Source: Bacteroidota bacterium (lineage in GTDB: Bacteria > Bacteroidota > Bacteroidia > NS11-12g > UBA9320). From it: a stretch of DNA of 64,000 nucleotides. The notes under the pieces were generated by a model. That model saw only the letters and a program-made list of their open reading frames with translations. It did no database searches and was not told the DNA's origin. The position numbers and the translations under genes were made by a program. The stretch lies in contig JAIBDD010000002.1 of the NCBI GenBank assembly GCA_024679565.1, positions 54,590 to 118,589 on the forward strand, given 5' to 3'. Below, piece after piece: positions 9,595 to 18,184 of the stretch; the stretch's first letter is position 1; every line of letters begins with the position of its first letter.

Positions 9595-10053
9595 ATGTCA
9601 CTCGAAGAAGATATTAAACAGGAAAAATTTAGATCAGAGTATCAAAAGCTGGCGATTAACATCGCCTTTACAAATAGTTATTTGACTAATTTACTAAACA
9701 ACTATTTGAAGCCTTACGACCTCTCTATGCAACAGTACAACGTACTTCGTATTTTAAGAGGTAAACATCCTAACCCCGTGTCTATCAATACGATAACTGA
9801 CAGAATGATTGACAAAATGAGCAATGCGTCGAGGTTGGTAGAGAAGTTGCGTAAGAAAACTATGATACTCCGTCAAACCTGTAATACCGATAAGCGTCAG
9901 GTAGATGTTTGTATTACGACCAAAGGACTAGAAATTTTGGCAGAGATAGACGCATTGATGGGACGATACGAGCAACAATTTGCCCATTTAGACCAATCAG
10001 AAGTATCGATTGCAAACAAAGTTTTAGACGATTTGAGAAAAAATAATAAATGA
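9595..10053 (+). CDS. MarR family transcriptional regulator
   Basis: Winged-helix region LSMQQYNVLRILRGKHPNPVSINTITDRMIDKMSNASRLVEKL. 152 aa. Confidence 0.8.
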   Translation: MSLEEDIKQEKFRSEYQKLAINIAFTNSYLTNLLNNYLKPYDLSMQQYNVLRILRGKHPNPVSINTITDRMIDKMSNASRLVEKLRKKTMILRQTCNTDKRQVDVCITTKGLEILAEIDALMGRYEQQFAHLDQSEVSIANKVLDDLRKNNK

Positions 10054-10649
10054 ATAAAAAGACAAAAACCAGTACGATATTATCCTTAATAGGATTAACC
10101 TTACTAAGCTTCACCGCCGCAGTCACCTCGACCGATTATACGGTATTAGCCAGTAAAAGTTCTGTTAAATGGACTGGGTATAAGCCTGGTGGAGAACACC
10201 AAGGTATTGTAAAAATAAAAAGCGGCACGTTATCCATGGAAGAAGATATGATAACATCAGGAAACATAGTGATTGACATGCCAACGATTAAGGTGACTGA
10301 CTCTGAAAGCACAAAACTTCTTAACCACCTTAAAGGGCAAGACTTTTTTAACGTTGCCAAGTTCCCTGCGAGTACATTGGTGTTAACCGACTGCAAATCA
10401 TTAAGTGTTGACTCTACAGGTAAACACACCTTGCAGATGACCGGAGATATGACCATTTTAGGTAAAACGCAGTCTCTTACATTTACTGCCGTAAACACTG
10501 CAAAAACAGCAAACTATATGTTTTATAATGCCAAGCTTACCATCGATAGAACAAAATTTGGTATCATTTATAAATCTAGTTTGTTGGGAGACGCGATGAT
10601 TAAAGACAATTTTGATTTAGCGATAAAATTGATCGCCAAAAAGAATTAG
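10050..10649 (+). CDS. YceI-like periplasmic protein
   Basis: Signal peptide plus YceI-like motifs (SSVKWTGYK...GEHQGIVKIKSG). 4-bp overlap with the upstream MarR gene suggests one operon. Confidence 0.75.
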   Translation: MNKKTKTSTILSLIGLTLLSFTAAVTSTDYTVLASKSSVKWTGYKPGGEHQGIVKIKSGTLSMEEDMITSGNIVIDMPTIKVTDSESTKLLNHLKGQDFFNVAKFPASTLVLTDCKSLSVDSTGKHTLQMTGDMTILGKTQSLTFTAVNTAKTANYMFYNAKLTIDRTKFGIIYKSSLLGDAMIKDNFDLAIKLIAKKN

Positions 10650-10713: not shown

Positions 10714-12636
10714 TTAGCTCTTACGCTTAAGCCCTAAAATTTCTTCAATACTATTCGAAGAAACCGCATGATATCCGGGCTTCGCCAATTCATACACGCG
10801 CTTTGCCCATTCTTTACCATCTTCCGTTTTCACTAAAGCTTCGTACAATGGCGACAAGAACTTTCGACGACCTACAGAAGTAAGGAAGCTTTCCATATTA
10901 TCGTAGGCGGGTTCATATTGAACGGCTATGCAGTGTTGAAACCAGTCACAGAGTATTTCATTATTCCCACTGTTTGTCAAATCAAACACGTTATCCAACT
11001 CGGCCACTTGATTCACATCTAACTTATCCTTCAGCCCTCTCAAAAAGTATAACCAATGGTGGGTTGTCCAGTTTTCGGTTAAAAGTTCGTCTGCCTGATC
11101 CCCGTTCATAAATTTAAGTATTTCCACCTCTACTTTTTCCAGCTCACCCGATTCAGGATTCGGTGCTGACGAAGGAAGGCCCGGACCATAAATCCATTCT
11201 TTAGGCTGGATTTTGGCATACAAATTTGAATCCCCTTTTAACAAATGTTTATCTAAGTAAGCCTCAAACTTCGCTGTGTTCATTGACTTAAAGGCATTTT
11301 CTGAAAAATACTGCTTTAAGAAAACGTCAAATTTTTCTCGGCCAACAGCGAATTCGATTGTTTGAAGAAAGAAGCGCCCTTTTTCGTAAGCAATATCCGT
11401 CAAACCATCATCAGGATTTCTTCCTGTTAATTCCAAATACAAATGGGTATCGTCCACCTTGTTTTCTCTCGTCAGGCGCTCTATAGTGTGCTGTAACTCT
11501 CCCATACCAAGCTTGGTTTGCATCTCTTCATAAGGTTTGCCGAAGATTTTTTCCATAATCCTTTGCTCAAAATAAACCGTGAAACCTTCGTTCAACCAAA
11601 AGTCATCCCATGTTTCGTTGGTTACCAAATTTCCTGACCACGAATGGGCAAGCTCATGTGCTATCAACGCTACTAAACTTCTATCACCCGCAATAATTGT
11701 AGGTGTTGCGAATGTCAAACGCGGGTTCTCCATTCCACCAAATGGGAAACTTGGAGGAAGAACAACTACATCATATTGACCCCAAGCATACTTGCCATAT
11801 AATGCCTCGGCACTGTCGATCATACTTTGCATATCTTGAAATTCCCAAACGCATTTCTTTAACATACTAGGCTCGGCATAAACGCCGCAGTTTCTGCCCA
11901 ATTGTTCGTACTCCAAATCACCTACGGTTAACGCCAACAAATAGGACGAGACTGGTTGGTTCATTGTAAAAGAATATACGCCGTCTTTGGTCTTCTTTTG
12001 TCCATTCTCAGCGCTCATTAAGGCAATTAAATCAGGTAGTGTCGTAATACTCGCGCTATAAGTAAACTTAACACCTGGGCTGTCTTGACACGGAATCCAT
12101 GTGCGCGCTAGTATCGCTTGAGACTGACTAAATAAATACGGGTGCTTCCCACCAGCGGTTTGCTGTGGCTTTAACCATTGCAATGCCTCAGCAGAAGGGT
12201 CAGTTTCGTAAAAGATTGTGACGCTCTTGGTCTTCTTTTTTAGGTTTATGGCTAAATCTTGTCCAAAATATTCTACATCCTCGGAGAGCAAGAACTCTGC
12301 CTCACTACCGTCGTTCAGAAGTATTTTTTCGATATTCAGTTGACGACTATCAAGATGCAAAACAGTTGCATTTGTTTTTCGGTCTAAGTCAAGACGTACG
12401 CTGCCTTTAAGTACTCTTTTCTCAAAGTCTACGGCTAAGTCTAGATGCATATGACGTACCGAGACTTCATGCGGATTGCTGAAGGAATGCGCGTCGGCTG
12501 TCACCTCCATTGATTCGGCTGTTGACCCCTGACTGGATTCGGTATTTAAAGCGGTATTGTTTTTGCAACTATTAAGTAAAGGTAGTGAAAGTAAGATCAG
12601 GCTTGAACTTACGGTGAGTCTAGTAATTCTGTTCAT
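10714..12636 (-). CDS. M1 family zinc aminopeptidase (leukotriene A4 hydrolase / cold-active aminopeptidase-like) lipoprotein
   Basis: GGMEN exopeptidase motif and HELAHSWSGN...NEGFTVY zinc site (HExxH...E). Start set at MNRITRL..LLNSC (lipobox) at 12636. Confidence 0.85.
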   Translation of the reverse strand: MNRITRLTVSSSLILLSLPLLNSCKNNTALNTESSQGSTAESMEVTADAHSFSNPHEVSVRHMHLDLAVDFEKRVLKGSVRLDLDRKTNATVLHLDSRQLNIEKILLNDGSEAEFLLSEDVEYFGQDLAINLKKKTKSVTIFYETDPSAEALQWLKPQQTAGGKHPYLFSQSQAILARTWIPCQDSPGVKFTYSASITTLPDLIALMSAENGQKKTKDGVYSFTMNQPVSSYLLALTVGDLEYEQLGRNCGVYAEPSMLKKCVWEFQDMQSMIDSAEALYGKYAWGQYDVVVLPPSFPFGGMENPRLTFATPTIIAGDRSLVALIAHELAHSWSGNLVTNETWDDFWLNEGFTVYFEQRIMEKIFGKPYEEMQTKLGMGELQHTIERLTRENKVDDTHLYLELTGRNPDDGLTDIAYEKGRFFLQTIEFAVGREKFDVFLKQYFSENAFKSMNTAKFEAYLDKHLLKGDSNLYAKIQPKEWIYGPGLPSSAPNPESGELEKVEVEILKFMNGDQADELLTENWTTHHWLYFLRGLKDKLDVNQVAELDNVFDLTNSGNNEILCDWFQHCIAVQYEPAYDNMESFLTSVGRRKFLSPLYEALVKTEDGKEWAKRVYELAKPGYHAVSSNSIEEILGLKRKS

Positions 12637-12766
12637 TCTTATCGATAACTTGAGGTCAAATATAGCATCACTACAATAAAACAATGTTTATAACGTTCAT
12701 TGCGTAACCGAAAATTTAATTACGCAAAGTGAACTATATGTATAATTTTGCACAACTTGTTAAGAA

Positions 12767-13618
12767 ATGAAAAAGATTTATAAAATTAAACCACTACAAG
12801 GACAAACATGGCTAAGAAGGTTTAGCCTATTGTTGACTTTGTTATGCAGCTTGGCTTTTATTTCTAATGCTCAAGACGACGAATACTCTGATGACTACTC
12901 TGACGATTATTCTTCCGACTACTCTGAAGACTATGAAGACGATTACTCTGGAGACAGCAGTGACGAATACTCTGAAGATGGTGATTACGGTGATGACTAC
13001 GGAGATGATGACTTTGGAGATGCATTCGGTAGTAGCAAACGTGAAGAGTACGTTCCAAAGAAAATCATTCGTAAACCCTACATAAGATTTGTTCCTCCTT
13101 ACGACTCCTCACGCGAGCTTGTATTATACAAAGCGGTTATAGAGGTTATGGACCGAGACGGTTATGAAGTAGAAATTGACACAATCCGTTTTCGTACGAA
13201 TCAATGGTTAGAAGCTGAATTCGGTAAGAACTTGAAAAAGTTTTTAACGATGGATGGCATTAATGATGCTGCTGGAGAAAACGAACACAAAATAACGATA
13301 CATGGTGCATTCCCTTGTGAAATTCAACCAAATGAATTTACAACGGTTACTGAAGGAATGGTAGAGTATGACATGGAAATACGTGTTAGAGACGGTAGAT
13401 ACCGTTATACGGTTAAAAACCTTGTTCATATCGCCGAGCCTCGTCCAGGGGAGAAAGAAGGTGAAAGAACATACTTTGAGTACCTGATGAAAAGTGAAGA
13501 CGATGTTAGAGCGGGTGATAGAATTTTAGTCGCTGCTGATAAGAAAATCAACTCCATGATGACTGAGTTACGGAAAACTTGTCAAACAAATCCTATCGAA
13601 GAAGATGATGACTGGTAG
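12767..13618 (+). CDS. secreted protein with N-terminal Asp/Tyr/Ser-rich low-complexity region
   Basis: Signal peptide (..LAFISNAQ), then ~50 aa of DDYS/DEYS/GDDY repeats and a ~190-aa globular C-terminal domain. No enzymatic motif recognised. Confidence 0.6.
   Translation: MKKIYKIKPLQGQTWLRRFSLLLTLLCSLAFISNAQDDEYSDDYSDDYSSDYSEDYEDDYSGDSSDEYSEDGDYGDDYGDDDFGDAFGSSKREEYVPKKIIRKPYIRFVPPYDSSRELVLYKAVIEVMDRDGYEVEIDTIRFRTNQWLEAEFGKNLKKFLTMDGINDAAGENEHKITIHGAFPCEIQPNEFTTVTEGMVEYDMEIRVRDGRYRYTVKNLVHIAEPRPGEKEGERTYFEYLMKSEDDVRAGDRILVAADKKINSMMTELRKTCQTNPIEEDDDW
12875..13020 (+). repeat. short in-frame tandem repeat (gat gac tac tct variants) encoding the DDYS-rich tract
   Basis: Direct reading: gacgacgaatactct gatgactactct gacgattattct tccgactactct gaagactatgaa gacgattactct... 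Confidence 0.7.
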
Positions 13619-13645: not shown

Positions 13646-13682
13646 CCCCTATGTCAACAATCAATTGGCATAGGGTTTTTTT
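13646..13682 (+). terminator. rho-independent terminator
   Basis: Stem ccctatg / cataggg with a 15-nt loop, followed by a run of seven T. Confidence 0.65.
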
Positions 13683-14189
13683 ATGTCTAAACTTTGTGTC
13701 AACAAAAGAATAAAAATCATGAGTAACACAGTAATGGGTCTTGACAAAGTAGGTGTAGAGCGGGTGGTAAACCGATTGAATGATCTCCTTTCATCGTATC
13801 AAATTTTTTATCAAAACTTGCGTGGGTATCATTGGAACATTATCGGAAAAGACTTCTTTGAATTACATCTAAAATTTGAAGAATTCTACAATAACGCCCA
13901 AATAAAAATCGATGAAATCGCAGAGCGTGTGCTCACTTTAGAAGCAACGCCACTGCACAGCTTTAACCAATATACCAAGCATGCAAAGATTAGTGCACAC
14001 GAAAATGTGACTGATGGCTCAGAAGCGGTTAATCAAATTAAAATTCAGTTAGAACAGCTGGTTATTCAACAAAGAGAAACGCTTGAAATCGCAGAAGATA
14101 ACAAAGACATTGCTACCTCTGATTTAATGACGCAATACATATCAGAACAGGAAAAAACAATTTGGATGTTAAAGTCCTTTTTGTCGTAG
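13683..14189 (+). CDS. dps: Dps family DNA-binding ferritin-like protein
   Basis: LRGYHWNIIGKDFFELHLKFEEFYN...IDEIAERV is the Dps ferroxidase-centre region. Alternative start at 13719 gives 157 aa. Confidence 0.8.
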   Translation: MSKLCVNKRIKIMSNTVMGLDKVGVERVVNRLNDLLSSYQIFYQNLRGYHWNIIGKDFFELHLKFEEFYNNAQIKIDEIAERVLTLEATPLHSFNQYTKHAKISAHENVTDGSEAVNQIKIQLEQLVIQQRETLEIAEDNKDIATSDLMTQYISEQEKTIWMLKSFLS

Positions 14190-14190
14190 C

Positions 14191-15033
14191 CTATTTGTTA
14201 CGCATATTTTTAACGGCGCGCCAAATAATTGGCGGCATCCAGTTGCTTGCAAAGTTTACAATGGAATTGTACTTGCGCATACCCTTCTCGCTCTCCACTC
14301 CTTTTCTGTCTACAAACAGCGTTGTGTGGTCTTCTAATCCTTCATTCACTTCATGTGATGGACGACCATTGGTGTAGTAGTATAGCGCCAGTGACCTTCG
14401 ACTTCTGTCTTCAGGACAACTTAACTTATCTGGGTGTCCGTGGTATGAAAAATCTGTGGTCGAGAACATAGCCATTCGGTTAAATAAGGGCAATATTTTC
14501 TTCTCACCAACAGTCATGTCTTCGTTCCAAAGCTCAAAGTGTCCGCCATATTCTTCCTTCCAGTCTTTGTTCAGATATACCAAAACATTCAACCTTCTAT
14601 CTAAGCCAGTGCGTTTGTTTTTATTAAAATCAGCGTGGACTTTCAAAAACCCACCGCGTTTAATTTGGTGACAGCCTCCACCTTCGAAATACGGATCTCC
14701 TAGTAAATCTTCGATACCCGTAAGTTCCGAAAGAAAATTTAGAAAAGGTTCTGAGTTTAAAAAGTGCATAAACACTTTGGTAGCCTTCCCAAATCTGTCT
14801 TCTCCGCGTGAAGCAAGCTTTACCTCATTAGGCGTTTTATACTGAATATCCCCCTTATCACCCATATCTGGAAACTCAGATAATACCAATGATAAAAATT
14901 CCGAATTAAAGAAATCATCAAAATAAATATTTGGGAAAGGAGAGTTAGATGAATAGGCGCTTTTATAGTGACTTGCAAGTCCCATTAATTCGTCATATTC
15001 GATGTCTAACACTTTATATTCTCCGATATACAT
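14191..15033 (-). CDS. 2OG-Fe(II) oxygenase superfamily protein (putative)
   Basis: HxD...H-like arrangement (KVHADFN ... FSYHGHPD) and jelly-roll-like composition. Family assignment is tentative. Confidence 0.45.
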   Translation of the reverse strand: MYIGEYKVLDIEYDELMGLASHYKSAYSSNSPFPNIYFDDFFNSEFLSLVLSEFPDMGDKGDIQYKTPNEVKLASRGEDRFGKATKVFMHFLNSEPFLNFLSELTGIEDLLGDPYFEGGGCHQIKRGGFLKVHADFNKNKRTGLDRRLNVLVYLNKDWKEEYGGHFELWNEDMTVGEKKILPLFNRMAMFSTTDFSYHGHPDKLSCPEDRSRRSLALYYYTNGRPSHEVNEGLEDHTTLFVDRKGVESEKGMRKYNSIVNFASNWMPPIIWRAVKNMRNK

Positions 15034-15070: not shown

Positions 15071-18000
15071 GTGACAACAAAGACACGTACGAATATGATA
15101 CAATATAAGTTGTGGAACAACATACTGGGATGGATAAGTTTCGCGATCGCGATGGTCGTTTACTCAATGACTGTTGAGCCATCGGTACCCTTATGGGATT
15201 GCGGCGAGTTTATCTCTGCTTCATACAGTTTACAAGTAGTTCACCCTCCTGGTGCTCCACTTTTCTTGCTTTTGGGGCGTTTGTTTTCTTTGTTTGCGCC
15301 AAGTGCCGAACATGTAGCACTTGCCGTTAATATGTTATCGGTTGTTGCCAGTGCATTGACTGTTGGTTTTACTTTTTGGATCACCACACATTTTGCAGTA
15401 AAGGCATTACACCTGAACGTTCAAAACCCAACCGTGTCTGTTGAAAATAGCATGACCATCTTTGGATCGGGCTTGATTGCAGCATTAGCCTTAACGTTTA
15501 TGGATACTTTCTGGTTCAGTGCAGTTGAAGCAGAAGTATACGCTTCCTCCTCTTTGTTTACAGCCTTATCGTTTTGGGGAATATTAAAGTGGGAGACAAA
15601 CAAGGACAAACCAAAATCAAATCGTTGGTTGGTATTTATAGCCTACACCATTGGTTTATCAATAGGACTTCACTTACTTAACTTACTGGTTATGCCAGCG
15701 GTAGTGTTATACTACTTCTTTAACCAATATGAAGTAAACCGAATGAATGTAATTCGTGCTTTAGGTATTGGAGCGGGTTCATTGGTATTTATTAACTGGG
15801 GATTGATTCCTGGGGTACCAAAAATCGCTGCATTCTTCGACAAGATTTTTGTAAACAGCCTCGGTTTACCGTTCAACTCTGGTGTATTGTTCGCAGTTGC
15901 ATTGGTAATAGGCTTGATAATCTTTGGTATTCGATATACGATCATTAATAAAAAGCCATTACTCAACTTAGTGATGTTGTGTACAACGTTTATTTTAATT
16001 GGTTATAGTTCATATTCAATGGTAGTAATTCGTTCGTTGGCCGAACCAGCAATTGACATGAACGATCCTGAAGATGCCTACAGTTTATTAAGCTATATTC
16101 AACGTGAACAATATGGTGATCGTCCATTATTTAAAGGCCCATACTACAACGCACGTTTGAAGCCACCTTATTACAAAGAAGGTTCTGCTCAATATCGAAA
16201 TGGTATAGACAGTGAAGGAAAGCCAGAATATGTAAAAACTGGAAACCGAACTGAGTATGTTTGGGACGATAGATACCTTACCAATTTCCCACGTATGGGT
16301 GATTTAACCGACAAGAATAAAGGGTACAAGTATTGGTATAAGGAACGTGAAAAAACCGACGGAAACGGGAATAAAGAAATAGTTACGCCTGACTTTAAAG
16401 ACAACATTGGGTTCATGATGAACTACCAACTGGGCTGGATGTATTGGCGATATTTCTTCTGGAATTTTGGTGGAAGACAAAGTGACATTCAAAACGTCGA
16501 CAATAACATTTTTGAAGGCAACTGGATGAGTGGTATAGGTGCATTCGACAATCGTCGTATTGGACCACAAGACAATATTCCTGCTTCTTTGTCAAGCAAT
16601 AAAGCACGAAACAAGTACTACCTCATTCCATTCTTCCTAGGATTAATTGGGATATTCTTTCAGTTCACTCGACAGAAATTGGACGCAACCGTTGTTCTTG
16701 CACTATTTGTGTTTACAGGAATGATGATTGTAATTTATCTGAATCAACCGCCTTTAGAACCAAGAGAACGGGATTACACCAACGTTGGGTCGTATCAAAC
16801 TTTCTGTATTTGGATTGGTTTGGCTGTATTGGCCATTGCCGAAGCGCTAAAGAAGTATATAAATGGGAAATTAGCAGCTGTAGTTGCTATTCTGGTTTGT
16901 GCTACGGCACCTTACCTAATGGGGTCACAAAACTGGGACGACCATGACCGTTCTGACAGATACTTGGGTATCAGTTTTGCAAAAAACTACTTAAACTCCT
17001 GTGACGAAAACGCCATTTTATTTACCAATGGTGATAACGATACGTATCCATTGTGGTACGCACAAAACGTAGAAGGGTACAGAACTGATGTAAGGGTGAT
17101 TAACCTAAGTCTTTTAAGTACCGAATACTACGCTCAAGCACTTACAAGAAAGTACTATGGATCAGAACCATTGCCTTTGAGTATTATACCTAGTGATAAA
17201 TTAAAAGACGGCGAGCGCGAAAGCTTAGCATGGAAAAAAGACAATCCATTCTTTAACTCAACGGATTACTACAACCTGGCAACAGTGCTAAAATTTATGA
17301 TTAGCGACGACGACAGACACAAAGCTGCCTCGAATCCTGTAAAGCCAAGCGAGTTAGAAAACTACCTACCAAGCCGGAATGTAATTGTACCTGTAGACAA
17401 AGACGCAGTGCTTAAATCAGGTATGTTAGAAGAAAAGGATACGGGTAAAATAGTAGATAATATCCAGTTCAATTTAGGTTCTCGATTGATGAAAGGAAGT
17501 ATTGTAATGCTTGATATAATCGCTTCCAATGCTGCAAATGGCTGGGAACGACCAATCTACTTTACAACAACAACTGGAGACGACACCTACGCTGGTTTGG
17601 AATCATACTTCCGACATGAAGGTTTGACTTATCGACTTGTTCCGATGAAACACAATTGGGATCAATATAGAGGCCTCGTTGATAAAGAATTAATTTATAA
17701 AAGGTTAATGAAAGACTTCACTTGGGGCAATATGGATAAGGGCACTATGTTCTTAGACCACAAAGCCACCCTAGTGCCTCGTAACCTTAGAATTCTATTC
17801 GTTCAGGTTGCTCAGCAATACTCTAGTGAAGGAGATACGGCTAAAGCCAAAGAATTACTTCTTGAATCGTTACGTGTTATTCCAGAATCAGTATTACCGA
17901 TGGATGTTTACGTTCGATCGTACTACATAGAAATGCTTAATACGAGCGGAGACTTAGAAACAGCCAAAATGTTGTTAGACCGAAGTGTGAATCAAATCAC

Positions 18001-18184
18001 AGAGGAAATGGCATACTATCGTAAACTGGCAACCAATAAGGACCGAAAATTTAAGAAAATTGGTAAACAAAAGTTAGAATCTACTGCACGAGACTTACAG
18101 CAAAATATTGGCATCGCAACACGAATGAGTGATTCGACAGCTGTCAATACGTTGTCTAATTTGCAGAGTACTTTTAGCAGATAA
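15071..18184 (+). CDS. DUF2723 family large polytopic membrane protein (putative glycosyltransferase-like)
   Basis: 1037 aa. N-terminus VEPSVPLWDCGEFISASYSLQVVHPPGAPLF matches the conserved DUF2723 start. Many TM helices, then a large soluble C-terminal domain. Confidence 0.75.
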   Translation: MTTKTRTNMIQYKLWNNILGWISFAIAMVVYSMTVEPSVPLWDCGEFISASYSLQVVHPPGAPLFLLLGRLFSLFAPSAEHVALAVNMLSVVASALTVGFTFWITTHFAVKALHLNVQNPTVSVENSMTIFGSGLIAALALTFMDTFWFSAVEAEVYASSSLFTALSFWGILKWETNKDKPKSNRWLVFIAYTIGLSIGLHLLNLLVMPAVVLYYFFNQYEVNRMNVIRALGIGAGSLVFINWGLIPGVPKIAAFFDKIFVNSLGLPFNSGVLFAVALVIGLIIFGIRYTIINKKPLLNLVMLCTTFILIGYSSYSMVVIRSLAEPAIDMNDPEDAYSLLSYIQREQYGDRPLFKGPYYNARLKPPYYKEGSAQYRNGIDSEGKPEYVKTGNRTEYVWDDRYLTNFPRMGDLTDKNKGYKYWYKEREKTDGNGNKEIVTPDFKDNIGFMMNYQLGWMYWRYFFWNFGGRQSDIQNVDNNIFEGNWMSGIGAFDNRRIGPQDNIPASLSSNKARNKYYLIPFFLGLIGIFFQFTRQKLDATVVLALFVFTGMMIVIYLNQPPLEPRERDYTNVGSYQTFCIWIGLAVLAIAEALKKYINGKLAAVVAILVCATAPYLMGSQNWDDHDRSDRYLGISFAKNYLNSCDENAILFTNGDNDTYPLWYAQNVEGYRTDVRVINLSLLSTEYYAQALTRKYYGSEPLPLSIIPSDKLKDGERESLAWKKDNPFFNSTDYYNLATVLKFMISDDDRHKAASNPVKPSELENYLPSRNVIVPVDKDAVLKSGMLEEKDTGKIVDNIQFNLGSRLMKGSIVMLDIIASNAANGWERPIYFTTTTGDDTYAGLESYFRHEGLTYRLVPMKHNWDQYRGLVDKELIYKRLMKDFTWGNMDKGTMFLDHKATLVPRNLRILFVQVAQQYSSEGDTAKAKELLLESLRVIPESVLPMDVYVRSYYIEMLNTSGDLETAKMLLDRSVNQITEEMAYYRKLATNKDRKFKKIGKQKLESTARDLQQNIGIATRMSDSTAVNTLSNLQSTFSR

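What the first reader, a model, noticed from the sequence alone, without database searches (positions are those of the whole stretch)
12767..13618. Secreted protein with an extreme Asp/Tyr/Ser-rich acidic tract encoded by a short tandem DNA repeat
After the signal peptide comes ~50 aa of almost pure D/E/Y/S/G (DDEYSDDYSDDYSSDYSEDYEDDYSGDSSDEYSEDGDYGDDYGDDDFGD) before a globular domain. The tract could bind calcium or mineral surfaces, or simply act as a polyanion. The underlying DNA (12875-13020) is a 12-nt-period repeat, which could mediate strain-to-strain length variation. Out-of-frame ORFs on both strands through this tract (12864-13058 and 12867-13085) are artefacts of the repeat.
Basis: seen in the sequence. 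Interest (0 to 1): 0.5.

Follow-up and report, generated by a model that had tools for sequence, protein, structure and literature searches.

The report
Acidic disordered arm of DUF4468 protein
An exported Bacteroidota protein of unknown function (DUF4468 fold) carries a 50-residue, almost pure Asp/Tyr/Ser disordered arm that selection keeps stable rather than variable, and in most lineages sampled its gene sits back-to-back with a periplasmic aminopeptidase gene; this is a useful lead, not a surprise.

Summary

The tract is the N-terminal disordered arm (pLDDT below 50) of a small Bacteroidota subfamily, about 50 clusters at 50% identity. Every member has such an arm, but its composition depends on lineage:
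- D/Y/S in this clade;
- G/W/D/T and nearly neutral in freshwater relatives;
- poly-Lys/Pro in one member.

The 12-nt DNA periodicity is real but degenerate, and the 4-residue peptide pattern (D-D-Y-S/G) explains all of it. The tract is under purifying selection (dN/dS about 0.05). It is identical across dozens of contigs, and differs by one codon from a relative with near-saturated synonymous divergence. It is therefore not a length-variable locus.

Unexpected extras:
- an invariant Gln after the signal peptide (Bacteroidetes Q-rule);
- a conserved C-terminal acidic-Trp tail;
- a divergently adjacent lipoprotein M1 aminopeptidase of the ColAP/LTA4H type in 25 of 25 informative loci outside the freshwater clade.

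Calcium or mineral binding remains untested.

The parts
12767..13618 (+). CDS, 283 aa: signal peptide + acidic disordered arm + DUF4468 domain + acidic-Trp tail. It is identical to NCBI MCO4818829.1, which is annotated 'hypothetical protein'.
12767..12871 (+). Sec/SPI signal peptide (aa 1-35, ...LAFISNA), followed by Gln36 (12872-12874). Gln36 is invariant in all 34 aligned homologues. This is the Bacteroidetes Q-rule position, so a pyroglutamate cap is predicted.
   Evidence: Q36 invariant; rule from PMC5837995 and PMC10653852; the cleavage site itself is inferred
12875..13024 (+). Asp/Tyr/Ser/Gly acidic tract (aa 37-86, net charge -25) with the pattern [DE]-D-Y-[SG]. It is predicted to be disordered.
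   Evidence: (pLDDT <50 for aa 36-91)
13025..13111 (+). Basic linker (SSKREEYVPKKIIRKPYI) and the motif RFVPPYDSS. Family-wide the motif is RF[VI]PPYD[ST][MLTIV], which matches the Bacteroidota O-glycosylation sequon. The window copy has the less common D-S-S.
13127..13591 (+). Structured DUF4468 / TBP-like domain plus a long C-terminal helix (aa 121-275).
13592..13615 (+). Disordered C-terminal tail PIEEDDDW-COOH. E279, D281 and W283 are invariant. Across the wider family the pattern is [DE]3-4 followed by W or F at the very end.
13647..13682 (+). Intrinsic-terminator-like hairpin (11 pairs) followed by a T-run, just after the stop codon. The gene looks monocistronic.
12743..12750 (+). TAATTTTG, a match to the Bacteroidetes -7 promoter box TAnnTTTG, 16 nt upstream of the ATG. 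The block from the box to the ATG is conserved in relatives.
   Evidence: the consensus is from established knowledge of Bacteroidetes promoters and was not tested here
10714..12636 (-). Divergently transcribed partner gene: a lipoprotein M1 aminopeptidase of the ColAP/LTA4H type (HEXXH-E and GxMEN motifs intact; lipobox LLNSC). It is adjacent in 25 of 25 informative loci outside the freshwater clade.

Best explanation
The tract is the intrinsically disordered N-terminal arm of a Sec-exported, probably periplasmic DUF4468 (TBP-like fold) protein.

Shown:
- The arm is disordered in the model.
- It is present in every family member.
- It is patterned: aromatic residues fall every 3-4 positions, preceded by Asp and followed by Ser or Gly.
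- It is held by purifying selection on composition and pattern.
- It is stable within populations.
- Its DNA periodicity is a by-product of the peptide pattern.

Inferred:
- After signal-peptidase I cleavage the new N-terminal Gln is cyclised to pyroglutamate, which shields the floppy arm from periplasmic aminopeptidases.
- The arm works as a flexible, strongly hydrated polyanionic spacer or 'bristle', with regularly spaced aromatic contact points. It keeps the domain soluble and extended and can bind divalent cations loosely.
- Its extreme acidity is a lineage-level elaboration, not the family's core function. The whole protein and its neighbour enzyme are acidic in this clade, whereas freshwater relatives are near neutral.
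- The conserved parts are the likelier sites of specific interaction: the [FYW]-G end of the arm, the RFVPPYD(S/T) motif, the DUF4468 domain and the acidic-Trp C-terminus.
For: Fold and disorder:
- Pfam DUF4468 at 24.2 bits against a cut-off of 22.6.
- In the AF2 model, aa 36-91 have pLDDT below 50 and aa 121-275 about 90.

Family-wide features:
- All 33 homologues, 61 genome loci and 39 more distant cluster representatives have a low-complexity arm after ...A/G-Q.
- Q36, PPYD and the terminal W are invariant.
- Aromatic spacing of 3-4 occurs 149 times against 74 expected. Adjacent aromatics occur 11 times against 62 expected. Asp precedes Tyr in 53% of cases.

Selection and stability:
- Against L010 the tract has dN 0.06 and dS 1.25, the rest of the protein has dN 0.014, and there is one codon indel.
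- The 90% cluster holds only two tract alleles. The window's tract sits on the exact window protein (26 contigs) and on a second variant (5 contigs). The other tract is shared by the sister allele (53 contigs) and its point variants.
- The lag-12 DNA signal equals the expectation from synonymous-codon reshuffling.

Acidity as a lineage trait:
- This clade: tract charge -16, domain charge -10, domain pI 4.9.
- Freshwater clade: tract charge -4.7, domain charge +1.2, domain pI 7.9.
- The charge of the M1 neighbour co-varies with the arm's charge (rho 0.46).
- Published work finds that marine proteomes are more acidic than freshwater ones, most sharply in secreted proteins (PMC6706942).
- The Q-rule and pGlu protection come from PMC5837995 and PMC10653852.
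Against: - No experiment or ligand prediction bears on what the arm binds.
- A pure 'spacer' role does not explain the strict aromatic periodicity or dN/dS of about 0.05.
- The marine origin of the close clade is inferred, not shown. Only the distant clade's record titles name lakes and rivers, and the pI comparison of neighbouring genes was weak.
- Location is a default assumption: periplasm rather than cell surface or outer-membrane vesicles.
- Homologous sequences are related, so the counts are not independent.
Confidence: 0.55

Rival explanations
1. The protein is a dedicated partner of the adjacent lipoprotein M1 (ColAP/LTA4H-type) aminopeptidase, acting as regulator, inhibitor, adaptor or stabiliser. 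The disordered arm and/or the acidic-Trp tail dock on the enzyme. The pGlu cap makes the partner itself resistant to the enzyme.
For: - The M1 gene is divergently adjacent in 19 of 19 non-redundant close loci, while the next most conserved neighbour is present in only 11 of 19.
- It is also adjacent in 6 of 6 distant clusters (31-46% identity) whose other neighbours are completely different.
- All partners carry a lipoprotein signal and intact catalytic motifs.
- The closest solved structure is ColAP, 3cia, E 6.5e-172.
- Both products are envelope proteins expressed from a shared intergenic region of about 130 bp.
Against: - The freshwater clade (about 45 loci) has no M1 gene within 5 kb. It sits in housekeeping synteny: TrhO-like gene upstream, rplM-rpsI-rpsB-tsf-pyrH downstream.
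- There is no charge complementarity. The M1 enzyme is itself very acidic (net -28, pI 5.0) and acidifies in step with the arm.
- Canonical short DUF4468 proteins also carry the acidic-Trp tail without this pairing being shown.
- Adjacency shows co-regulation at most, not physical contact.
Confidence: 0.22
2. This is the first reader's idea: the tract is a specific high-capacity Ca2+ (or mineral-surface, or Fe3+) binding module, like calsequestrin tails or phosphophoryn and osteopontin poly-Asp stretches.
For: - The tract has 25 carboxylates in 50 residues, together with Tyr and Ser.
- The Dps/ferritin gene lies immediately downstream in about half of the close loci.
- A polyanion will bind divalent cations for purely physicochemical reasons (established knowledge).
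Against: - No known Ca-binding family matches in Pfam or NCBIfam.
- Acidity is not conserved in the family. Freshwater relatives carry about -5 net charge over 30-61 aa, and one member (P0071) has a poly-Lys/Pro arm.
- The Dps linkage is lost in 9 of 19 close loci and in all distant ones.
Confidence: 0.13
3. The arm is a substrate for post-translational modification that defines its function. Candidates are Bacteroidota general O-glycosylation (a mucin-like glycosylated linker) or Tyr modification such as sulfation at acidic D-Y sites.
For: - D-[ST]-[AILVMT] sequons in the arm of the freshwater clade: 49 observed against 7.2 expected, present in 38 of 40 arms.
- The family-invariant PPYD[ST][MLTIV] motif is itself a sequon in 74 of 75 unique sequences.
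- Under the published extended motif, in which L/I/V/T/A/S make up about 90% of third positions, the window protein has D-S-S at aa 63 and 113 and D-T-I at aa 138.
- D-Y within acidic surroundings resembles known Tyr-sulfation sites (from memory, not tested).
Against: - There is no sequon enrichment in the acidic clade's arms (14 observed against 10.1 expected), and none of the canonical type in the window's tract.
- About half of all non-cytoplasmic Bacteroidota proteins carry the motif, so it is not distinctive.
- No sulfotransferase is seen among the neighbours.
- PPYD(S/T) may simply be structural.
Confidence: 0.07
4. The repeat is a contingency locus: slipped-strand mispairing changes tract length between strains.
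For: - TRF detects period-12 arrays.
- Tract length differs between species.
Against: - Copies match only 61-75%. The longest exact repeat is 14 nt, and synonymous codons are mixed (GAC 11 / GAT 9).
- The tract is identical on 26 + 5 contigs for one allele and 53 + 3 contigs for the other, even in variants that carry point changes elsewhere.
- There is only one codon of length difference at dS of about 1.
Confidence: 0.03

Closest known systems
DUF4468 (Pfam PF14730) proteins with solved structures: BACOVA_04320 (PDB 4e6f) and BDI_3606 (PDB 4jhy), both TBP-like fold with unknown function
   Different: The canonical members seen here are about 177-190 aa. This subfamily adds a 30-80 aa low-complexity N-terminal arm and the RFVPPYD(S/T) motif. 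In most lineages it is also paired with an M1 aminopeptidase gene.
BamC (E. coli lipoprotein 34)
   Different: This is an analogy of architecture only. Sequence identity is 13-15%. BamC is a lipoprotein and its arm is not acidic. No BAM genes lie nearby.
Polyanionic Ca2+-binding disordered regions (calsequestrin C-terminal tail, dentin phosphophoryn DSS repeats, osteopontin poly-Asp)
   Same: They share an extreme Asp/Ser-rich, disordered, extracytoplasmic character.
   Different: There is no homology and no family match. The regular Tyr pattern is absent from those proteins. Acidity is not conserved across this family. Binding was not tested.
Colicin N-terminal disordered translocation domains (TolB box DGSGWSSENNPW; recalled from memory)
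   Same: Some family members have Gly/Ser/Trp/Asp arms with strings such as DSGSGWDDENNPDS (P0030). Both are disordered arms that act inside the periplasm.
   Different: The resemblance is one of low-complexity composition only. The window protein has Tyr, not Trp, and no such string. This was not tested and remains a lead only.
Cold-active aminopeptidase ColAP (PDB 3cia) and leukotriene A4 hydrolase: the family of the partner gene, not of the tract protein
   Same: The neighbouring gene product matches over its full length (E 6.5e-172 and about 1e-121), with intact HEXXH-E and GxMEN motifs and the conserved GRRK segment.
   Different: Here the enzyme is a lipoprotein. No partner protein has been described for this enzyme family in the searched literature.

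Membership tests
DUF4468 (PF14730) | Pfam HMM score above the gathering cut-off | tested here: met
   Score 24.2 bits against 22.6, E 4.5e-5, aa 143-220. Distant relatives score 34-35 bits.
DUF4468 (PF14730) | TBP-like fold as in the solved members 4e6f and 4jhy | tested here: met
DUF4468 (PF14730) | Bacteroidota protein exported through an N-terminal signal peptide | tested here: met
   All 61 genome loci are Bacteroidota MAGs. A signal peptide plus A/G-Q is present in the aligned full-length sequences.
Bacteroidetes Q-rule substrates (SPI cleavage exposing Gln, then pGlu) | Gln immediately after the predicted SPI cleavage site | tested here: met
   Q36 is invariant in 34 of 34 sequences and present in the distant clusters. 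The cyclisation itself cannot be tested here.
Contingency locus / simple-sequence-repeat gene | Near-perfect tandem DNA units able to slip | tested here: not met
   Copy identity is 61-75%. The longest exact repeat is 14 nt. The lag-12 signal equals the peptide-only expectation.
Contingency locus / simple-sequence-repeat gene | Repeat-number polymorphism among close strains | tested here: not met
   The 90% cluster has two tract alleles, one codon apart. Each is identical over dozens of contigs. dN/dS is about 0.05.
Known Ca2+-binding families (EF-hand, RTX, calsequestrin and others) | Match to a curated family model | tested here: not met
   There are no Pfam or NCBIfam hits other than DUF4468.
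Known Ca2+-binding families (EF-hand, RTX, calsequestrin and others) | Measured cation binding | not testable with these tools
   This needs ITC, a 45Ca overlay or a hydroxyapatite assay.
Bacteroidota general O-glycoproteins | D-(S/T)-(L/I/V/T/A/S/M) sequon in an exported, soluble region | tested here: inconclusive
   The window protein has D-S-S at aa 63 and 113 and D-T-I at aa 138, but no canonical sequon in the tract. Sequons are enriched only in the freshwater clade's arms (49 against 7.2) and not in this clade (14 against 10.1). The motif is common in the phylum.
T9SS cargo / surface lipoprotein (true secretion beyond the periplasm) | C-terminal T9SS sorting domain, or a lipobox with a lipoprotein export signal | tested here: not met
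   The C-terminus is the DUF4468 helix plus an 8-aa tail, and Pfam finds no CTD. Cys27 is not conserved in the family.

The most novel reading that the evidence does not exclude
The arm-bearing DUF4468 proteins form a two-gene envelope module with the ColAP/LTA4H-type lipoprotein aminopeptidase. The pGlu-capped protein would be a dedicated partner of the enzyme (regulator, inhibitor or substrate adaptor). It would dock through its disordered aromatic-acidic arm or its conserved [DE]n-Trp C-terminus. This would give the first function for DUF4468 and the first protein partner for a bacterial LTA4H-like M1 peptidase.
Probability: 0.22. Interest if true: 0.55.

Novelty: new member of a known kind. 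Interest (0 to 1): 0.3.

Why it matters
On its own the tract is an ordinary, if extreme, low-complexity disordered region on a catalogued hypothetical protein, and it is not a variable locus.

Its value is as an entry point into DUF4468. That family has had two crystal structures for over a decade but no known function, and this scan found essentially no literature on it. The comparison made here defines an arm-bearing subfamily with sharply conserved end motifs: pGlu-type Gln, RFVPPYD(S/T) and an acidic-Trp C-terminus. It also shows a deep, repeated genomic pairing with a periplasmic M1 aminopeptidase. That pairing turns 'function unknown' into a directly testable binding and activity hypothesis.

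The contrast between acidic arms in this clade and neutral arms in freshwater relatives is also a clean single-protein example of how disordered regions follow lineage-wide shifts in charge.

Tried and rejected
- A PDB sequence search with the family profile gave no hit. Only fold comparison linked the protein to 4jhy and 4e6f.
- NCBIfam gave no match.
- A literature search for DUF4468 found two incidental mentions. A search for an LTA4H-like aminopeptidase partner found nothing relevant.
- The afdb50 fold library was unavailable.
- tRNA and Rfam scans of the window found nothing.
- The perfect palindrome in the promoter (12700-12727) is not conserved exactly in any fetched locus. It was therefore not pursued as an operator.
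- The O-glycosylation sequon is not enriched in this clade's arms, so a 'mucin-like glycosylated linker' reading was rejected for the window protein.
- Electrostatic docking of the polyanion on a basic M1 enzyme was rejected, because the enzyme is itself strongly acidic and co-varies in the same direction.
- The Dps/iron link was rejected, because that adjacency is lost in half of the close loci and in all distant ones.
- An acidic propeptide neutralising a basic mature domain was rejected, because the domain is itself acidic (net -12).
- The comparison of neighbour-gene pI between clades was inconclusive, because the gene sets differ.
- A fused M1+DUF4468 paired-alignment AF2 run was prepared but not submitted.
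- The C184/C272 disulfide idea was dropped, because the two Cys are not lost together in distant members.

Full report
**1. Observation**

- The ORF at 12767..13618 (+) encodes 283 aa.
- Residues 37-86 read DDEYSDDYSDDYSSDYSEDYEDDYSGDSSDEYSEDGDYGDDYGDDDFGDA: 20 D, 9 Y, 9 S, 5 E, 5 G, net charge -25.
- This is exceptional within the window. The best 50-aa stretch of any other ORF of at least 100 aa has 17 acidic residues, against 25 here.
- The N-terminus (MKKIYKIKPLQGQTWLRRFSLLLTLLCSLAFISNA|Q) is a Sec/signal-peptidase-I type leader.
- A hairpin plus T-run follows the stop codon at 13647-13682.
- A TAnnTTTG-type box (TAATTTTG, 12743-12750) lies 16 nt before the ATG, inside a block that is conserved in relatives.
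- The gene is therefore real and looks monocistronic.

**2. The DNA repeat**

- TRF reports period 12 at 12878-12933, but with only 72% matches (score 63), along with overlapping rows of period 9, 15, 24 and 36.
- The repeat finder shows eight 36-nt registers that are 61-75% alike.
- The lag-12 base identity is 0.558 against 0.448 +/- 0.039 when codons are shuffled (z 2.8). When the amino-acid order is kept and synonymous codons are redrawn, the expectation is 0.566 (z -0.3).
- The longest exact repeat is 14 nt, and its copies lie 84 nt apart.
- Synonymous codons are mixed: GAC 11 / GAT 9, TAC 7 / TAT 2.
- The periodicity is therefore that of the peptide, with aromatic residues spaced 4,4,4,4,4,8,6,4,5. 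It does not come from recent DNA duplication.
- Both out-of-frame ORFs (12867..13085 + and 12864..13058 -) use the +1-shifted phase. There each forward triplet begins with the second base of a D/E/Y/S/G codon, which is never T. Their openness is a by-product of composition.

**3. The globular part**

- Pfam gives DUF4468 ('with TBP-like fold') at 24.2 bits against a cut-off of 22.6. NCBIfam gives nothing.
- An AF2 model built on 34 sequences has pLDDT below 50 for aa 36-91 and about 90 for aa 121-275. The order of elements is strand, long helix, four long strands, long C-terminal helix. The last 8-9 residues are disordered.
- Foldseek against the PDB puts 4jhy (BDI_3606) and 4e6f (BACOVA_04320, a 'DUF4468 family protein') on top, at E 7e-8 and 3e-6.
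- Both top hits are structural-genomics entries without a known function. The held literature mentions DUF4468 only twice, and only incidentally.
- The C-terminal 190 aa are therefore not a known enzyme.

**4. The family**

- A word-indexed search found 33 homologues at 55-98% identity.
- A scan of one genome per species found 61 loci, all uncultured Bacteroidota MAGs.
- An exhaustive phmmer search of 1.84 billion cluster representatives found only 50 clusters at E <= 1e-3. The family is small.
- The layout is shared throughout: a signal peptide ending in A/G-Q, a low-complexity arm, a basic linker, K-P-Y-x-R-F-x-P-P-Y-D-(S/T)-(hydrophobic), the DUF4468 domain, a long helix, and a final [DE]3-4-W (sometimes F) as the last residues. 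A few of the most distant representatives depart from this at the C-terminus.
- In the 34-sequence alignment Q36, P110-P111-Y112-D113, E279, D281 and W283 are invariant.

The arm's composition depends on lineage:

| Lineage | Arm composition | Arm length | Evidence |
|---|---|---|---|
| Window's clade | D/Y/S/G, or D/E/W/G in a few members | 55-83 aa from Q to the RF motif | |
| Clade whose record titles name lakes and rivers (Baikal, Erken, Mendota-type, WHONDRS rivers) | G/W/D/T/A, only mildly acidic | 30-61 aa | |
| Other clusters | DPYADPY repeats, T/S/P/D-rich stretches, and a poly-Lys/Pro arm in P0071 | variable | |

**5. Pattern and selection**

- In the acidic clade, aromatic residues are evenly spread. 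A spacing of 3-4 occurs 149 times against 74 expected from shuffles, and adjacent aromatics occur 11 times against 62 expected.
- Asp precedes the aromatic residue in 53% of cases (background 29%). Ser or Gly follows it in 62%.
- Against the closest genome locus (L010) synonymous divergence is already about 0.9-1.25. Even so, the tract shows dN 0.06 and a single codon indel, against dN 0.014 for the rest of the protein.
- The tract thus evolves about four times faster than the domain but remains under clear purifying selection.
- The exact window protein is on record for 26 contigs (NCBI MCO4818829.1, 'hypothetical protein').
- Its 90% cluster contains only two tract alleles (the 283-aa and 282-aa types). 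Variants with point substitutions elsewhere keep the tract unchanged.
- This contradicts a hypervariable, slippage-prone locus.

**6. Acidity as a lineage trait**

| Measure (mean) | Window's clade | Freshwater clade |
|---|---|---|
| Arm charge | -16 | -4.7 |
| Domain charge | -10 | +1.2 |
| Domain pI | 4.9 | 7.9 |

- The neighbouring aminopeptidase is also strongly acidic (net -28, pI 5.0 in the window). Its charge co-varies with that of the arm (Spearman 0.46, p 0.02, not corrected for phylogeny).
- Published comparisons report more acidic proteomes in marine than in freshwater prokaryotes, with the sharpest difference in secreted proteins (PMC6706942).
- The acidic clade being marine is my inference and is not shown. 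A comparison of neighbour-gene pI was weak.

**7. Genomic context**

- In the window the gene is divergently adjacent to an M1 aminopeptidase at 10714-12636 (-), with Pfam domains Peptidase_M1_N, Peptidase_M1 and Leuk-A4-hydro_C.
- The same pairing holds in all 19 non-redundant loci of the close clade. The next most conserved neighbours (MarR, YceI, Dps, a TMEM260-like GT-C) are present in only 10-11 of 19.
- It also holds for six distant clusters at 31-46% identity (P0043, P0044, P0046, P0047, P0050, P0056), whose remaining neighbours are entirely different.
- All 24 full-length partners have a lipoprotein signal (for example LLNSC|K) and intact HEXXH-E and GxMEN motifs.
- The best solved match is the cold-active aminopeptidase ColAP (3cia, E 6.5e-172), followed by leukotriene A4 hydrolase at about 1e-121.
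- The exception is the freshwater clade. It has no M1 gene within 5 kb and sits between a TrhO-like rhodanese gene and rplM-rpsI-rpsB-tsf-pyrH.
- The pairing is strong evidence of co-regulation or a functional link, but not proof of contact. The lack of charge complementarity argues against simple electrostatic docking of the polyanion.

**8. Modifications**

- The invariant Gln after the leader fits the Bacteroidetes Q-rule. Cyclisation to pyroglutamate is reported to stabilise exported proteins, presumably against aminopeptidases (PMC5837995, PMC10653852). That would matter for a floppy arm encoded next to an aminopeptidase gene. This step is inferred.
- The family motif PPYD(S/T)(M/L/T/I/V) matches the phylum's O-glycosylation sequon in 74 of 75 unique sequences. 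The window copy is the one D-S-S.
- The freshwater arms are enriched in sequons (49 against 7.2 expected), but the acidic arms are not (14 against 10.1).
- Ser is an accepted third residue, and about half of all exported proteins carry the motif (PMC12871550). This remains a weak lead.

**9. Conclusion**

- The 'short tandem DNA repeat that drives length variation' reading is not supported.
- The 'polyanion / calcium binder' reading is untested, and is unlikely to be the family's core function.
- The most likely role is a selected, patterned, disordered polyanionic arm on a periplasmic DUF4468 protein, acting as a flexible spacer with aromatic contact points.
- The conserved end motifs and the aminopeptidase pairing are the best handles for finding the real function.
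- The object is a member of a known but uncharacterised family. Interest is modest.

Noticed in passing
window 10714-12684 (-): The mechanical ORF start (TTG at 12684) for the M1 aminopeptidase is probably wrong. The ATG at 12636 gives MNRITRL...LLNSC, a lipoprotein signal that is conserved in all 24 full-length partner enzymes. The best solved match is ColAP (3cia), then LTA4H.
   Followed up: yes
window 12700-12727: A perfect 8-bp inverted repeat, TTGCGTAA-N12-TTACGCAA, lies in the divergent intergenic region. It is unique in the window (0 expected by chance). In relatives it is only partly kept (for example ATGCGTAA...TTATGCAA in L010). It may be an operator.
   Followed up: partly
window 12743-12766, and the same position in L010-L021 and L007: The block TAATTTTGCACAACTTGTTAAGAA, which runs from the -7-like box up to the ATG, is almost invariant in relatives down to about 65% protein identity. 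That is far more conserved than neutral DNA at this divergence (dS about 1).
   Followed up: partly
L008 9093-9626; P0091; P0092: Canonical short DUF4468 proteins (177-190 aa, no long arm) also end in an acidic run plus Trp (KKDDW, PAEDW, KEEEW). The acidic-Trp C-terminus may therefore be a general, undescribed hallmark of DUF4468 proteins.
   Followed up: partly
window 15071-18184 (+): A 1037-aa TMEM260-like GT-C protein (PF11028, E 4e-69), of the protein O-mannosyltransferase-like type, is syntenic in 10 of 19 close loci. It lies near an exported protein rich in Ser and D-S motifs. No link has been shown.
   Followed up: no
window 13683-14189 (+) and 14191-15033 (-): A Dps/ferritin-like gene starts 65 nt after the stop codon of the DUF4468 gene. 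It converges on a P4H-like 2OG-Fe(II) oxygenase gene, with 1 nt between their stop codons. The trio is kept in about half of the close loci only.
   Followed up: partly
window 9595-10649 (+): A MarR-family regulator gene and a YceI-like gene overlap by 4 nt (10050-10053), which suggests an operon. They lie upstream of the M1 gene in 10-11 of 19 close loci.
   Followed up: no
P0022, P0030, P0032 / L008, L060 (close clade) and L024-L069: In some members Trp replaces Tyr in the arm. This gives strings such as DSGSGWEDSGSGWDDENNPDS, which resemble the colicin TolB-box region (recalled from memory). A semi-conserved (N)PDS(T) / D-T-A core sits in the middle of the arm in many members.
   Followed up: partly
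P0071 (distant family member): Its arm is poly-Lys followed by a Pro-rich stretch (QKRKRKKKKKKPVVIEQPAPEPPPEVP...), the opposite charge to the window's arm. Yet it has the same domain and a closely similar acidic-Trp tail (NTEDEW).
   Followed up: no
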